Origin: Escherichia coli
GTDB taxonomy: Bacteria; Pseudomonadota; Gammaproteobacteria; Enterobacterales; Enterobacteriaceae
DNA: 64,000 bases
NCBI RefSeq assembly: GCF_017348835.2
Contig: NZ_CP071375.1
Reading direction: 5' to 3' (one strand)
Shown: piece after piece, positions 3,001 to 9,000 of the stretch
Position numbering within the stretch: position 1 is the first letter of the stretch
Layout of the letters: the number at the start of each line of letters is the position of its first letter
Made by a program: the position numbers

Positions 3001-6000
3001 CTTCATGCGCATAGTTCTTACCGTTCTGGTAATTTTCTCGTGAACCTTTGAATCCGGCCCCTCCAGCAAATATAAGAGAATCATTGCTTATCCCCGCAAA
3101 ACCGCCAGCGACGCCATCTGGTGATGAGACGGGATCAAGCTTATTCCATTTTAAATTATCACCGGTGAAGTCAAGTTCAAATACGGCATCCGTTCGCAAT
3201 CCTGGTTTGGCTTCGCCATTAATAAGCCAGGTTTTATCACCTTTATTCACAACCGCCGCACCAGCCGTTCCGTACCAGGGAGATTCGCCAGCGTAACTCC
3301 ATTGCTGTGTTGAGGGATCAAAAGACAACAGAAACTTATTGAAGAAATAATCTTCTGCTTTTTTGTCAAAATAGTAGGCGTTGATTTTATCTATAGCGGT
3401 TGAATCTTTTCCAGCTTCGTTGAGATCTTCAAAATAGCCATTGAAGATATTCTGGTTAACACCGCCAGTAACATAAGCCTTGCCGTTGTGTACAAAAGTC
3501 ACATGGCCCGCCATGCCCATCGGCGCGTGCGACATCAATTTAACCCAGCTATTGGTTTTGGGGTTGTATTTGTGTACGTCATTAAATACCTGAGTCAAGC
3601 CCTCGCTGTTTTTGCCAATGCCGCCAAACACATACAGATTGCCATCAATAAATGCAGAGGTTGCTTGATCTCTCGGTCCGCCAGGGAATGCAGCTAACGC
3701 TGTCCATCTTTTATCTTTGGCCTGTGTATCCAGCTTGTACCATGCCGTACCTGCGCTACCTAAACCAATGTAGACAGTGTCGTTATCAATTGCTCCGGTA
3801 CCACTTTTAAATGGCACAGGAGTTTCCGGTAATACAGACGCGTTTGCGGCAAATGAAGCCATTATGATAGTAAGCGCCGTTATTGTTTTATTCATTGTGA
3901 CTGTCTCCTGTCTACTACAGTTTAAATGACACACCAATGCGATAACTGTTTTCCGATAAATTATCTCTGCCGTTGTAAACACCCTGACGGTCCAGGTAGT
4001 CATATTCTATGTATGGCGTAATATCGGGCGTCATATGGTATTGTAGAACAAATGCATTTTCCGTCGCCCATTTCTTATGGTTTGCATAGCGATAATCGTT
4101 CTGTTTACTGTATAGCGTCGTTTGCCATGCGAAGGTGAAATCACTATTAATATGGTAAGTGACATATCCATCCCAACGATGAACGTTATCACGAGACATA
4201 TCACCAGATAAGTCTTGTTGTCGGTAAGCTTTCCAGTCGTAACGATAGCGAATGCCAAAATTAAGATCTTTTGTCGCGTCCCAGGACAGTTTTACGTAGG
4301 GTCCGTAGCGTGTGCCATTGCTGCTAAAATGCGTTAACATTCCCGGGCGCACCGTCCATTGATCATCAAGTTTAATCGCGTAATTAACTTCAACCTGAAC
4401 ATCATTGAGTGCGGCATTTTCCTTTTTATTATCATGAATGGTATTCCAGGTATTACTTTCCATGCTTGCCCACCATCCATTTTGCCATCCCTCACTGACT
4501 TTGAGTCGAGTCTCATAGGCGTGGCTTCCACTACGATATCCACCACGTACGTCCAGTGTCGCAGCCTGAGAAATTAATGGGGACGAAAAGCACAGTAATA
4601 ATACGCTAGAAAGTATTTTAGCCTTTTTCATAAATTTCACTCATTTGTAGGATACAGAAAGCAATACAAAGCCCGCATAAACAATTAGCATTTATGTTGT
4701 GTAATATTTTTTGCCAGGCTTATAGTGTCTTTGGCAACCGGTAGCTGTATTTTATATTTTTTGTATAATGTCTCCTGTGAAAAATCTCTTTCCACATTAT
4801 TTAAATAAACAGAGAGCCAGATTAAATACCTGAGTATAAAATCTCTGCTGATGTTTAATTGATTTGAATGTTCGTAAGCTATATCACTTACTCAATCCAT
4901 TTTACCCAGAGTCATAAAATAGAGTGTCTGTTGATCTCATTTTCATATTCCTTTCAGACTGAAGTGCGTTTTCATCACCCGATGAGAAAGAACTGAAGTG
5001 ATGTTTGCCATAGATTACGAGATGCCCAGTCTCATTGACTATCGTGGTGCACCTTTATACCTGTTATACCAGATCAAAAATCACGCAATCCATACAACGA
5101 AACCAGATTTGCAATTCGTGTCACAAAATATGTCGATATTTTTCTAAGAAGAAGATGCCATGTGAAGCCAGACGAACACTTGCGGAGGCCTTCATAAACC
5201 AGAGATATTTGTTTAATTATCTGTTTTATATGTGATTTATTTAGAGTCTAAACAAGGGAGGCTTTGCAAGCTAACTTAGTGGGCGTGGTGAAAATAAGTG
5301 TTTACCCGCCATCAGGCTGAGCATAATTCTCATCATGAAATATGTTTCCTGGTTTGTGGCTTGTAGCTGGTCACTCCTGAAGTCTCTCTGGAGAGGCTTG
5401 TTGATGTTGGTGTTTTCAGGGGGATGCCTCACTTAGTTTGTTTGCCGTATCGCCCGGCGAATAGCTGTGATTGAGGAAGGTTTAAGTCGCAGTGACCAAA
5501 GCCATATTTACCAACGGATGCAGATGAAAAAATCATCTCCTGCTTTCCCCCATATCTCCATGATAAAAAGGAATGTAACAATCTCATGGACTAAACTGAC
5601 GAACCAGCCAGGAATAATCGCTAGGGACCTAAGAATTAGCCTGATAATAGCCACTAAGAAATTACTGCGTTCCATGAAATAGCCATTTTGTGGCAAATGG
5701 AGTTGACTAATAATGTCATATGTGAGACGGCTAGTTGAACGAATATTAAATTTTGCTGAATTTTTTATGTTGATTTTACTTGTTACAGAACATATCACAT
5801 GATATATAGATAAGATTAGTTGCATTAATGATGAGGGTTATTATTAGATTCGTATCAGATTGATAAATATATAAAAGTATATAGCATGCAAGAGCATGGC
5901 GTTTGTATGGCAAAGTTATTATAAGTAACTGTTGCTACTCCATTTAAGTTCACTCAGAAGAACTGGTCCACTTACGTTAGTTATTAAGCAAACGTTCGCT

Positions 6001-9000
6001 TTTATAAACATAATCAGGATAAAAATGTTGGATTATTGCTAACCCAGCACAGCTAGTGCGCGTCTGTAATTATAAGGGAAAAACGATGAAGAATAAGGCT
6101 GATAACAAAAAAAGGAACTTCCTGACCCATAGTGAAATCGAATCACTCCTTAAAGCAGCAAATACCGGGCCTCATGCAGCACGTAATTATTGTCTGATTT
6201 TGCTTTGTTTTATTCATGGTTTCCGGGCGAGTGAAATTTGTCGATTGAGGATTTCGGATATTGATCTTAAGGCAAAGTGTATATATATCCATCGATTAAA
6301 AAAAGGCTTTTCAACAACGCACCCGCTATTGAACAAAGAAGTTCAGGCTTTAAAAAACTGGTTGAGTATCCGTACTTCGTACCCGCATGCTGAGAGCGAG
6401 TGGGTATTTTTATCGCGTAAGGGGAATCCGCTTTCTCGGCAACAGTTTTACCATATTATCTCGACTTCCGGTGGTAATGCCGGGTTGTCACTGGAGATTC
6501 ATCCGCACATGTTACGCCATTCGTGTGGTTTTGCTTTGGCGAATATGGGAATAGATACGCGACTTATCCAGGATTATCTTGGGCATCGCAATATTCGTCA
6601 TACTGTCTGGTATACCGCCAGCAATGCAGGGCGTTTTTACGGCATCTGGGATAGAGCCAGAGGACGACAGCGTCACGCTGTTTTATAGAGATAGTTGAGA
6701 TACCAGGGATGGTGTTAAAAACTACATTATTCTTACGATATATCAAAAATGATTAACCATTTATTAATTGATGTTATTGTAAGTGTGATTCTTAATTACC
6801 ATAATAAACATTAAGTTAACCATATCCATACAAAATACAATGGTTTATGTTCTTCAAAATAAATAAACAAAATCATTCATAAATTTACACATCACTTAAA
6901 TTCTCCTGTTTCCGCACTTTTTTCTTTATTTTTTAAGCAACTGGAAGTTAATCCACTGCAATCTATTGTTATATTGAATCAAATCAATGAAAATAGATGT
7001 TGTCACATCAGTGATATTTTATTTTTGTATGATATTTAATGTAATTGACTGATAGCCACATCACTTCGTGTGTGGTTATCTTTTTATCTATTGGGCTAAT
7101 TTTGACCGATTGAGGTTTCCTATAGGTATTCATTTAAATATATCTCAGTTAGGAGTACTACTATTGTGAGTAAACGTCGTTATCTTACCGGTAAAGAAGT
7201 TCAGGCCATGATGCAGGCGGTTTGTTACGGGGCAACGGGAGCCAGAGATTATTGTCTTATTCTGTTGGCATATCGGCATGGGATGCGTATTAGTGAACTG
7301 CTTGATCTGCATTATCAGGATCTTGACCTTAATGAAGGTCGAATAAATATTCGCCGACTGAAGAACGGATTTTCTACCGTTCACCCGTTACGTTTTGATG
7401 AGCGTGAAGCCGTGGAACGCTGGACCCAGGAACGTGCTAACTGGAAAGGCGCTGACCGGACTGACGCTATATTTATTTCTCGCCGCGGGAGTCGGCTTTC
7501 TCGCCAGCAGGCCTATCGCATTATTCGTGATGCCGGTATTGAAGCTGGAACCGTAACGCAGACTCATCCTCATATGTTAAGGCATGCTTGTGGTTATGAA
7601 CTGGCGGAGCGTGGTGCAGATACCCGTTTAATTCAGGATTATCTCGGGCATCGAAATATTCGCCATACTGTACGTTATACCGCCAGTAATGCTGCTCGTT
7701 TTGCCGGATTATGGGAAAGAAATAATCTCATAAACGAAAAATTAAAAAGAGAAGAGGTTTGATTTAACTTATTGATAATAAAGTTAAAAAACAAATAAAT
7801 ACAAGACAATTGGGGCCAAACTGTCCATATCATAAATAAGTTACGTATTTTTTCTCAAGCATAAAAATATTAAAAAACGACAAAAAGCACCTAACTGTTT
7901 GATATGTAAATTATTTCTCTTGTAAATTAATTTCACATCACCTCCGCTATATGTAAAGCTAACGTTTCTGCGGCTCGACGCATCTTCCTCATTCTTCTCT
8001 CCAAAAACCACCTCGTGCAATATAAAAATCTATAAATAAAGATAACAGTAGAATATTAAGCCAACAAATAAACTGAAAAAGTTTGTGCGCGATGCTTTCC
8101 TCTATGAGTCAAAATGGCCCCAAATGTTTCATCTTTTGGGGGAAAGCTGTGCAGTGTTGGCAGTCAAACTCGTTGACAAAACAAAGTGTACAGAACGACT
8201 GCCCATGTCGATTTAGAAATAGTTTTTTTAAAGGAAAGCAGCATGAAAATTAAAACTCTGGCAATCGTTGTTCTGTCGGCTCTGTCCCTCAGTTCCGCAG
8301 CGGCTCTGGCCGATACTACGACGGTAAATGGTGGGACCGTTCACTTTAAAGGGGAAGTTGTTAACGCCGCTTGCGCAGTTGATGCAGGCTCTGTTGATCA
8401 AACCGTTCAGTTGGGACAGGTTCGTACCGCTAGCCTGAAGCAACCAGCTCTGCCGTTGGTTTTAACATTCAGCTGAATGATTGCGATACCACTGTTGCCA
8501 CAAAAGCCGCTGTTGCCTTCTTAGGTACGGCAATTGATGCTACGCATACTGATGTACTGGCTCTGCAGAGTTCTGCTGCAGGTAGTGCAACAAACGTTGG
8601 TGTGCAGATCCTGGACAGAACGGGTGCTGCGCTGGCGCTGGACGGTGCGACATTTAGTTCAGAAACAACCCTGAATAACGGAACCAACACCATTCCGTTC
8701 CAGGCGCGTTATTTTGCAACCGGTGCCGCAACCCCTGGCGCAGCTAATGCGGATGCAACCTTCAAGGTTCAGTATCAATAACCTACCCAGGTTCAGGGAC
8801 GTCATTACGGGCAGGGATGCCCACCCTTGTGCGATAAAAATAACGATGAAAAGGAAGAGATTATTTCTATTAGCGTCGTTGCTGCCAATGTTTGCTCTGG
8901 CCGGAAATAAATGGAATACCACGTTGCCCGGCGGAAATATGCAATTTCAGGGCGTCATTATTGCGGAAACTTGCCGGGTTGAAGCCGGTGATAAACAAAT

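What the first reader, a model, noticed from the sequence alone, without database searches (positions are those of the whole stretch)
4632..6085. Long nanC-fimB intergenic region links sialic acid and type 1 fimbriae regulation
About 1.45 kb of AT-rich non-coding DNA separates the divergent nanC and fimB genes. In K-12 this region carries distant NanR and NagC operator sites that modulate fimB, and therefore fim switching, in response to sialic acid and GlcNAc. The track ORFs here (5035..5235, 5467..5682, 5508..5825) are low-complexity and probably non-coding.
Basis: established knowledge. Interest (0 to 1): 0.3.

Follow-up and report, generated by a model that had tools for sequence, protein, structure and literature searches.

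The report
Known nanC–fimB regulatory spacer, operators intact
This is the well-studied 1.45-kb non-coding stretch between the E. coli nanC and fimB genes, and this strain keeps the binding sites through which sialic acid and GlcNAc control both genes, so the finding is correct but ordinary.

Summary
Window 4632..6085 is a 1454-bp, 36.8% GC spacer between divergent nanC (3915..4631, -) and fimB (6086..6688, +). It is 95.8% identical to the 1455-bp K-12 spacer.

The interpretation also holds. The NanR operator (5048..5070) and both NagC-type sites (5110..5132, 5322..5344) are base-for-base identical to K-12. They are conserved islands in 13 E. coli strains and in one 81%-identical relative. The two NagC sites are exactly 212 bp apart in 15 of 15 sequences, although the DNA between them is highly variable. 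That fits a DNA loop.

The published fimB-proximal elements are all present: SlyA sites, promoter, 271-nt leader, MicA target.

The refuting alternative fails. There is no Rfam or Pfam hit, the ORFs are broken in other strains, and nothing is annotated here in NC_000913.3.

Strain-level points:
- The Dam site next to the first NagC site is GATA here; that exact 41-mer occurs in 1026 of 4982 genomes.
- One SlyA site carries a common polymorphism.
- An unreported near-consensus SlyA-like box lies at 5263..5274.
- fimA carries a 10-bp frameshift, so the fimbrial output is probably broken.

This is already-known biology of low interest.

The parts
3915..4631 (-). nanC coding sequence (238 aa), the left boundary of the spacer
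   Evidence: ORF list. PGAP names it NanC in the identical PE164 record. Weak KdgM/OmpL-family hit.
4632..5056 (-). Inferred nanC leader (about 425 nt), if nanC is transcribed from the promoter embedded in the NanR operator
   Evidence: Inference from the promoter geometry. No significant fold: z = -0.60. It is 82% identical to E69, close to the 84% seen at nanC third codon positions. The TSS was not verified in any paper I could read.
4731..4758 (+). Sigma-70-like site TTGGCA-16-TATATT pointing towards fimB
   Evidence: Promoter scan, 10 of 12 matches, but the number of hits in the region is not above shuffles. The same hexamer pair is listed for the fimB side of this spacer in PMC3946193. 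Function unknown.
5048..5070 (-). NanR operator O_NR: GGTATAACAGGTATAAAGGTGCA, two exact GGTATA repeats plus a degenerate third
   Evidence: Unique tandem in the 64-kb window. Identical to K-12. Invariant in 13 strains. Inside a 48-nt run identical to the diverged E69. Aligns with the nanX operator. NanR binding to this spacer is reported in K-12 (PMC5934670).
5063..5071 (-). Inferred nanC extended -10 (TGGTATAAC) inside O_NR; predicted TSS near 5056
   Evidence: Read directly from the sequence. The same motif occurs in the nanX promoter module. Inference, not mapped.
5072..5075 (.). GATC Dam site abutting O_NR
   Evidence: Present in all 13 strains. NanR-dependent protection from methylation is from Sohanpal 2004, which I recall from memory and could not read.
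5110..5132 (.). NagC-type site O_NC1 (TGCAATTCGTGTCACAAAATATG), overlapping a CRP-like TGCAA-N6-TCACA (5110..5125) centred 61.5 bp from the predicted nanC TSS
   Evidence: Identical to K-12. Invariant in 13 strains, one change in E69. An independent 3-site PWM ranks it 18th of 63,978 positions. It lies at -705..-683 from the fimB TSS.
5135..5138 (.). GATA where K-12 has the GATC next to O_NC1
   Evidence: The exact 41-mer carrying GATA is in 1026 of 4982 genomes and in E69.
5148..5321 (.). Interval between the two NagC sites: highly variable in sequence, fixed in length
   Evidence: pi = 0.091, with 0 gap columns in 174. 61.5% identical to E69 with no gaps. O_NC1 to O_NC2 is 212 bp in 15 of 15 sequences. 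No IHF consensus match in this interval.
5263..5274 (+). Near-consensus SlyA-like box TTTGCAAGCTAA (11 of 12 to TTAGCAAGCTAA)
   Evidence: The only match with at most 1 mismatch in the 64-kb window. A conserved island within the variable interval. Not mentioned in PMC3173223 or elsewhere in the held library. Binding untested.
5322..5344 (.). NagC-type site O_NC2 (CATAATTCTCATCATGAAATATG)
   Evidence: Identical to K-12. Unchanged in 12 of 13 strains; 2 changes in E69. PWM rank 2 of 63,978. It lies at -493..-471. O_NC2 is named in PMC3173223 Fig. 1.
5621..5647 (+). SlyA operators O_SA2 (5621..5632, CTAGGGACCTAA) and O_SA1 (5636..5647, TTAGCcTGATAA; K-12 has A at 5641)
   Evidence: Sequences are from PMC3173223. 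Located. Position 5641 is A, T or C among the 13 strains.
5770..5815 (+). fimB core promoter region and TSS (5815)
   Evidence: The TSS follows from the 271-nt 5' UTR (PMC3911127) and from O_SA at -194..-167 (PMC3173223). Computed. Positions 5770..5825 are invariant in 13 strains.
5816..6085 (+). fimB 5' UTR with the ops-like element (5897..5908), MicA target (6040..6077) and Shine-Dalgarno AAGGGA (6074..6079)
   Evidence: Elements and offsets are from PMC3911127. Located. The last 155 nt are identical to K-12.
6086..6688 (+). fimB coding sequence (200 aa), the right boundary of the spacer

Best explanation
The region is the nanC-fimB regulatory spacer of E. coli. It is non-coding DNA with two control ends and a shared sugar-sensing module.

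The module (5048..5344) holds one NanR operator and two NagC sites 212 bp apart. For nanC it sits at the promoter. The NanR repeats cover an extended -10 and the predicted start. The first NagC site overlaps a CRP-like site at -61.5. NanR and NagC therefore keep nanC off until sialic acid (sensed by NanR) or GlcNAc-6-P (sensed by NagC) releases them.

The same bound proteins, with NagC bridging its two sites in a loop, raise transcription from the fimB sigma-70 promoter about 480 to 755 bp away. This increases FimB and OFF-to-ON switching. Amino sugars remove them and lower fimB.

Near fimB lie the SlyA/H-NS sites, the promoter and a 271-nt leader with the MicA target.

Shown here: presence, identity to K-12, conservation and spacing of the sites, and absence of a gene or known RNA. 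Taken from the K-12 literature: protein binding and the signs of regulation. Inferred: the nanC promoter and leader, the CRP overlap, and the loop.
For: - Spacer identity and flanking genes.
- NanR: the GGTATA tandem is unique in 64 kb (about 0.008 expected by chance, my arithmetic). It is identical to K-12. It shares a 53-bp module with the nanX promoter. The 20-mer is shared across Enterobacteriaceae.
- Footprint against the 81%-identical E69: the NanR to first-NagC block is 96% identical and O_NC2 is 91%, against 61.5% for the interval between the NagC sites and 55.7% beyond it.
- Within E. coli: pi is 0.007 to 0.011 at the operators and 0.091 in the interval, which has no indels.
- The 212-bp spacing holds in 15 of 15 sequences, while the next segment varies from 298 to 310 bp.
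- Site positions (-767..-745 to -493..-471) match the published range of about -760 to -470.
- Literature: NanR binds this spacer (PMC5934670). NanR and NagC activate fimB (PMC3173223). fimB needs two NagC sites and looping (PMC5401889). NanR needs at least two closely spaced repeats (PMC8012715).
- fimB-proximal elements were located at the published offsets.
- No coding gene or RNA family was found.
Against: - No binding or expression data exist for this strain.
- The NagC PWM scores (13.7 and 11.0) are within what shuffled spacers reach (mean maximum 11.6, 95th percentile 15.1). Motif strength alone is therefore not significant, and the case rests on conservation, spacing and the published coordinates.
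- The IHF site reported between the NagC sites could not be located by consensus.
- The primary papers (Sohanpal 2004 and 2007, Condemine 2005, Kalivoda 2013) were not readable. The 212-bp figure, the IHF requirement and the CRP, OmpR and CpxR control of nanC are from my memory.
- One review states the opposite signs for NanR (PMC4797297).
- The third NanR repeat is degenerate (GGTGCA).
- fimA is frameshifted here, so the fimbrial consequence may be lost.
Confidence: 0.9

Rival explanations
1. The spacer hides an unannotated small protein gene or sRNA that accounts for its length and conservation.
For: Several ORFs of 40 to 105 aa exist. The minus-strand ORF starting at 5825 stays open for at least 73 codons in all 13 strains, and its variable sites lean towards third positions (8/7/17). 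A 49-aa ORF (4998..5147) is intact in all 13.
Against: - No Pfam hit at E <= 1 and no Rfam hit at E <= 1.
- ORF71 stops at codon 19 in 11 of 12 other strains. ORF66 ends at codon 56 in most.
- ORF105 changes frame or length through 1-bp and 11- or 12-bp indels.
- The intact 49-aa ORF lies on the operator block, and its variable sites are 4/5/3 by codon position.
- Neither PGAP nor the curated NC_000913.3 record annotates anything here.
- The nanC leader has no significant fold.
Confidence: 0.04
2. The operators serve nanC only. The long distance to fimB is AT-rich, H-NS-bound filler, and the link to fimbriae is negligible or lost in this strain.
For: - The module sits at promoter distance from the predicted nanC start and is duplicated at nanX.
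- The mid-spacer evolves about neutrally, with indels.
- fimA is frameshifted here.
- Strains that lost fim through an IS1 deletion keep nanC and the operators.
- H-NS is listed on this spacer (PMC3946193).
Against: - K-12 genetics shows that NanR and NagC activate fimB through these distant sites (PMC3173223; PMC5401889).
- O_NC2 lies 277 bp upstream of the predicted nanC start. It is conserved with fixed spacing, which a simple nanC repressor site would not need.
- The fimB gene, promoter and leader are intact and conserved here.
Confidence: 0.06

Closest known systems
E. coli K-12 nanC(yjhA)-fimB intergenic region with O_NR, O_NC1 and O_NC2 (El-Labany 2003; Sohanpal 2004, 2007; McVicker 2011)
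   Same: Same locus, same flanking genes, and length 1454 against 1455 bp. All three operators are identical. The SlyA O_SA2 site, the promoter, the 271-nt leader, the ops-like element and the MicA target are all present at the same offsets.
   Different: - About 4% of bases are substituted, concentrated at 5185..5630.
- Only 2 of K-12's 6 GATC sites remain, and the one beside O_NC1 is GATA.
- O_SA1 has C instead of A at 5641.
- fimA downstream is frameshifted.
NanR (GGTATA)3 operators of nanATEK-yhcH and nanXY(yjhBC) (Kalivoda 2003, 2013; Horne 2021, PMC8012715)
   Same: GGTATA repeats separated by 2 or 3 nt, with 20 of 23 bases shared with the nanX operator. The surrounding 53 bp are homologous to the nanX promoter, including a TGTGA-type half-site upstream.
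   Different: The third repeat is GGTGCA here (GGTACA in E69) rather than GGTATA. This operator is also credited with activating a gene about 755 bp away, which the other two are not.
NagC two-site loop systems (nagE-nagB, chb, glmU; Plumbridge)
   Same: Two 23-bp AT-rich sites with a TT-N9-AA core, resembling the nagE and nagB boxes read from K-12. The spacing is strictly conserved.
   Different: The spacing is longer (212 bp). At fimB the effect is activation from a distance rather than repression at the promoter.

Membership tests
NanR (GGTATA)n operator of the E. coli sialoregulon | Two or more GGTATA repeats separated by 2 or 3 nt | tested here: met
   GGTATA-ACA-GGTATA-AA-GGTGCA on the minus strand at 5070..5048. 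The exact tandem is unique in the 64-kb window. PMC8012715 states that high-affinity binding needs at least two closely spaced repeats.
NanR (GGTATA)n operator of the E. coli sialoregulon | Sequence homology with another sialoregulon operator | tested here: met
   88.7% identity over 53 bp to the region upstream of nanX. The 20-mer GGTATAACAGGTATAAAGGT is found in 90 loci across Enterobacteriaceae.
NanR (GGTATA)n operator of the E. coli sialoregulon | Operator overlaps the promoter of a repressed nan operon | tested here: inconclusive
   An extended -10 (TGGTATAAC) lies inside the operator and a CRP-like site lies at -61.5. The generic promoter scan did not call it, and the nanC TSS could not be checked in the literature.
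NanR (GGTATA)n operator of the E. coli sialoregulon | NanR protein binds, and Neu5Ac relieves binding | not testable with these tools
   Reported for the K-12 spacer by genomic SELEX (PMC5934670). The site is identical here.
NagC dual-operator loop at fimB (O_NC1 and O_NC2) | Two 23-bp NagC-type sites (AT-rich arms, TT-N9-AA core) | tested here: met
   Sites at 5110..5132 and 5322..5344. With a PWM built from the nagE, nagB and LEE1 boxes they rank 18th and 2nd of 63,978 positions. Shuffled spacers reach similar scores, so this is supportive only.
NagC dual-operator loop at fimB (O_NC1 and O_NC2) | Positions agree with the published K-12 map | tested here: met
   The sites span about -767 (NanR) to -471 (O_NC2). 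The published range is 'around 760 and 470 bp upstream' (PMC3173223).
NagC dual-operator loop at fimB (O_NC1 and O_NC2) | Fixed inter-site spacing compatible with looping | tested here: met
   212 bp in 15 of 15 sequences, including E69. The interval has no gap columns despite pi = 0.091, and the adjacent segment varies from 298 to 310 bp.
NagC dual-operator loop at fimB (O_NC1 and O_NC2) | IHF site between the two NagC sites | tested here: inconclusive
   No WATCAANNNNTTR match with at most 1 mismatch within 5133..5321. The only such match in the spacer is at 5853..5865.
Dam-protected GATC sites beside O_NR and O_NC1 | A GATC directly adjacent to each operator | tested here: not met
   GATC at 5072..5075 beside O_NR is present. 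Beside O_NC1 the sequence is GATA (5135..5138). The GATA 41-mer is in 1026 of 4982 genomes. This feature is therefore only half present in this allele.
fimB promoter-proximal control region (SlyA/H-NS sites, 271-nt leader, MicA target) | Published sequence elements present at the published offsets | tested here: met
   O_SA2 is exact. O_SA1 has one polymorphic base. The ops-like element, Shine-Dalgarno and MicA window are exact. The offsets give a single consistent TSS at 5815.
Protein-coding gene or known RNA family within the spacer | A conserved reading frame, a domain hit or an Rfam hit | tested here: not met

The most novel reading that the evidence does not exclude
The conserved TTTGCAAGCTAA box at 5263..5274 may be a functional, so far unreported operator for SlyA or another MarR-family protein. 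It matches the SlyA consensus at 11 of 12 positions, better than either published fimB SlyA site, and it sits inside the otherwise highly variable interval between the two NagC sites. If functional, it would couple SlyA/H-NS antagonism to the sugar-sensing loop or to nanC. Alternatively, it may be part of the incompletely defined co-regulatory or IHF element described for K-12.
Probability: 0.2. Interest if true: 0.3.

Novelty: already known. Interest (0 to 1): 0.1.

Why it matters
The locus is a textbook case of a bacterium using host-derived amino sugars, which signal inflammation, to switch on a sialic-acid porin and turn down a pro-inflammatory adhesin from one shared control region. This strain keeps the operators intact, which adds a data point but no new principle.

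The comparative result is a neat sequence-only confirmation of the looping model: operators frozen, a 212-bp spacing frozen, and the DNA in between free to vary. It could guide where to look for the unresolved long-range activation mechanism.

Tried and rejected
- Rfam scan of 3800..7200 at E <= 1 found nothing.
- The generic promoter and terminator scan gave no more hits than shuffles (5 against 5.8 promoters; 2 against 1.0 terminators). It missed the mapped fimB promoter, so it is uninformative here.
- Folding the inferred nanC leader gave z = -0.60, so no structured RNA is evident.
- The IHF consensus search found no site between the NagC sites.
- The NagC PWM ranks the sites highly but is not significant against shuffled spacers.
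- Sohanpal 2004, Kalivoda 2013 and Condemine 2005 were requested and are not held; Sohanpal 2007 has no PMC id in the reference lists.
- I tried to obtain the fimB-proximal half of the diverged E69 allele from complete genomes. No E69-like allele is in that collection, so the footprint beyond about 5560 rests on E. coli strains only.
- I considered whether loss of four K-12 GATC sites is special. The key one is a common polymorphism and is also GATA in E69, so I rejected it as remarkable.
- I considered whether the O_SA1 A-to-C change weakens the SlyA site. On the opposite strand the site still has 2 mismatches to the palindromic consensus, by my count the same as the K-12 allele. No effect can be argued.
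Full report
**1. Observation**

The minus-strand nanC ORF ends with its ATG at 4631 and the fimB ATG is at 6086, so 4632..6085 is a 1454-bp spacer.
- The window is 100% identical here to E. coli PE164, a pig isolate from Nanjing. PGAP annotates nanC and fimB on either side of that stretch and nothing between them.
- K-12 MG1655 has a 1455-bp spacer that is 95.8% identical.
- NCBIfam confirms FimB and NanM.
- The spacer is 36.8% GC against 50.3% for the window.
- It is present in 5109 of 5426 complete E. coli genomes.

**2. The shared sugar-sensing module**

*NanR operator.*
- On the minus strand, 5070..5048 reads GGTATA-ACA-GGTATA-AA-GGTGCA.
- The exact GGTATA-N3-GGTATA tandem occurs once in the whole 64-kb window. 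About 0.008 would be expected by chance (my arithmetic).
- It is identical to K-12 and invariant in 13 diverse E. coli strains.
- A 53-bp stretch around it is 88.7% identical to the region upstream of nanX (yjhB), where the third repeat is a full GGTATA.
- The 20-mer core is shared across Enterobacteriaceae.
- Published work says NanR needs at least two closely spaced repeats (PMC8012715). It also reports that NanR binds this spacer in K-12 (PMC5934670).

*NagC-type sites.* Two 23-mers share the AATTC...AAATATG arms and the TT-N9-AA core:
- 5110..5132, TGCAATTCGTGTCACAAAATATG
- 5322..5344, CATAATTCTCATCATGAAATATG

The same core is seen in the nagE and nagB boxes, which I read from K-12, and in the LEE1 NagC site (PMC5401889). 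Both 23-mers are identical to K-12. A PWM trained only on those three outside sites ranks them 18th and 2nd of 63,978 window positions. Shuffled spacers reach such scores, however (mean maximum 11.6), so motif strength alone is not decisive.

**3. Positional agreement with the K-12 map**

The 271-nt fimB leader (PMC3911127) and the SlyA sites at -194..-167 (PMC3173223) both place the fimB start at 5815. Relative to that start:

| Site | Position |
|---|---|
| NanR operator | about -767..-745 |
| O_NC1 | -705..-683 |
| O_NC2 | -493..-471 |

This matches the published statement that the three operators lie 'between around 760 and 470 bp upstream'.

**4. Phylogenetic footprint**

A pattern scan recovered a diverged relative, E. 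coli E69 (L095), which is 81% identical over the nanC-proximal 716 bp. Identity of the window to E69 by segment:

| Segment | Identity to E69 |
|---|---|
| 5049..5147 (NanR site to just past O_NC1) | 96% |
| O_NC2 | 91% |
| Interval between the NagC sites | 61.5% |
| 5345..5560 | 55.7% |
| nanC-proximal 417 bp | 82% |

The 82% figure is about the same as the 84% seen at nanC third codon positions (only 44 codons).

Among the 13 E. coli strains, pi is 0.007 to 0.011 at the operators, 0.021 in the two leaders, and 0.091 in the interval. That interval has no indel. O_NC1 to O_NC2 is 212 bp in 15 of 15 sequences, whereas the next segment varies from 298 to 310 bp. Sequence free, length fixed: this is what a protein-bridged DNA loop predicts. 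It agrees with the published requirement for two NagC sites at fimB (PMC5401889).

**5. The nanC side (inferred)**

- Inside the NanR operator the minus strand reads TGGTATAAC, an extended -10. That puts the nanC start near 5056 and gives a leader of about 425 nt.
- O_NC1 overlaps TGCAA-N6-TCACA, a CRP-like site centred 61.5 bp upstream of that start.
- nanX has the same arrangement, with its operator about 430 nt from its ATG.

On this reading NanR occludes the nanC -10 and start, and NagC competes with CRP. I recall that Condemine 2005 reported NanR, NagC and cAMP-CRP control of nanC, but I could not read the paper. The leader shows no significant fold (z = -0.60).

**6. The fimB side**

- O_SA2 (5621..5632) is exact. 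O_SA1 (5636..5647) reads TTAGCcTGATAA. Position 5641 is A, T or C among strains.
- Positions 5770..5825, which hold the promoter and start, are invariant in 13 strains.
- The ops-like element (5897..5908), the MicA target window (6040..6077) and the Shine-Dalgarno sequence (6074..6079) are present. The last 155 nt are identical to K-12.

**7. The refuting alternative**

- No Rfam family matches at E <= 1 and no Pfam hit is found for the three ORFs.
- ORF 5467..5682 stops at codon 19 in 11 of 12 other strains. ORF 5035..5235 ends at codon 56 in most.
- The minus-strand ORF 5508..5825 changes frame and length through indels.
- The one ORF intact everywhere (4998..5147) lies on the operator block, and its variable sites show no codon-position bias.
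- The curated NC_000913.3 record annotates nothing between b4311 and b4312.

The region is non-coding regulatory DNA.

**8. Mechanism**

Without amino sugars, NanR sits on its repeats and NagC bridges its two sites. nanC is then repressed and fimB transcription, 480 to 755 bp away, is enhanced, which favours FimB-driven OFF-to-ON switching. Neu5Ac releases NanR. Through its catabolite GlcNAc-6-P it also releases NagC, and GlcNAc releases NagC alone. nanC then rises and fimB falls.

The signs come from PMC3173223 and PMC5401889. One review gives the opposite signs (PMC4797297), which I take to be an error. How activation works over this distance is unresolved in the literature.

**9. Strain-level differences**

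- Substitutions relative to K-12 cluster at about 5185..5630.
- Only 2 of K-12's 6 GATC sites remain.
- The GATC beside O_NC1 is GATA. The identical 41-mer is in 1026 of 4982 genomes and E69 also has GATA. This is a common polymorphism.
- fimA carries a 10-bp deletion and a premature stop, and PGAP flags it as frameshifted in PE164. The regulatory wiring is intact, but the fimbrial output is probably not.

**10. One unreported feature**

TTTGCAAGCTAA at 5263..5274 matches the SlyA consensus TTAGCAAGCTAA at 11 of 12 positions. It is the only match with at most 1 mismatch in the 64-kb window. It is a conserved island within the variable interval. It is not mentioned in the SlyA-fimB paper or elsewhere in the held library. 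In K-12, mutating O_SA1 removes most of the SlyA effect on fimB. Any role for this box would therefore be accessory or nanC-directed. I give it a probability of 0.2.

**11. Verdict**

Novelty: already known. Interest: low.

Noticed in passing
window 8243..8781 (deletion near 8431): fimA, the major type 1 fimbrial subunit, has a 10-bp deletion relative to K-12 that shifts the frame and creates an early TAG. PGAP marks fimA 'frameshifted' in the identical PE164 record. The fimB circuit upstream may therefore drive a dead output.
   Followed up: partly
window 5263..5274: TTTGCAAGCTAA matches the SlyA consensus at 11 of 12 positions. It is the only match with at most 1 mismatch in the 64-kb window. 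It is conserved in 13 E. coli strains (E69 has one change) within an otherwise highly variable interval. I found no mention of it in the held literature.
   Followed up: partly
window 5148..5321: The interval between the two NagC sites has pi = 0.091 among 13 strains, four to eight times that of the neighbouring segments, yet no indel at all. The site-to-site distance is 212 bp in 15 of 15 sequences.
   Followed up: yes
window 4814, 5135, 5204, 5385 (K-12 GATC positions): Four of K-12's six GATC Dam sites in the spacer are absent in this allele and none is gained. The one beside O_NC1 is GATA here, in E69, and in the 1026 of 4982 genomes that carry the identical 41-mer.
   Followed up: yes
window 5641: Position 6 of the SlyA operator O_SA1 has three alleles among strains: A as in K-12, T, and C as in this window and EC25.
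   Followed up: partly
window 5380..5399: The substitutions that remove a K-12 GATC (GA to CT) also create a perfect 8-bp hairpin, AAGTCTCT-CTGG-AGAGGCTT, followed by a T-rich stretch on the + strand. It is shared with strain EC25. Terminator-like hits in the region are no more frequent than in shuffles.
   Followed up: no
window 5421..5428: Four substitutions within 8 bp (GGGGGATGCC against GGATGATGTT) are private to this allele among the 13 strains. This looks like a single multi-base event or a small conversion patch.
   Followed up: no
L004 4190..4912 (E. coli KN13-4); equivalent to window ~5822: In KN13-4 (and, from an identical match end at query position 1191, probably ECO-104) the spacer match ends at query position 1191, a few bases past the fimB start. 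In KN13-4 it is followed by an IS1 and a fimbrial gene remnant next to gntP. An IS1-associated deletion has removed fimB and most of the fim operon while keeping nanC and the operators.
   Followed up: partly
L003 2440..2640 (upstream of nanX in strain 300081): The nanX (yjhB) promoter region shares a 53-bp module with the nanC side of the spacer: the NanR operator plus upstream sequence with a TGTGA half-site. It also lies about 430 nt from the nanX start codon, so both operons would have long leaders.
   Followed up: partly
window 4731..4758 (+): TTGGCA-16-TATATT is the best sigma-70-like match in the region and points towards fimB from inside the inferred nanC leader. The same hexamer pair is listed for the fimB side of this spacer in the RpoD SELEX paper PMC3946193, which reports two holoenzyme peaks in the spacer.
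   Followed up: no
L020 (contig CAUHML010000277.1): A 3.3-kb contig binned as an 'uncultured Bacteroides sp.' MAG carries the E. coli nanC-fimB spacer (96.9% identical), fimB (99.5% amino-acid identity) and fimE. This is almost certainly a mis-binned E. coli contig.
   Followed up: no
window 1086..2751: Downstream of nanM, PGAP annotates only a 345-bp sialate O-acetylesterase (nanS) fragment in PE164, with an HNH endonuclease gene beside it. The 335-aa ORF at 1744..2751 has no NCBIfam hit. The third gene of nanCMS therefore appears to be disrupted or replaced in this strain.
   Followed up: partly
L005 (EC25) and L010 (ATCC 25922): PGAP marks nanC with an internal stop in strain EC25 and marks fimB as truncated in ATCC 25922. 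Either gene flanking this spacer can be lost in individual strains.
   Followed up: no
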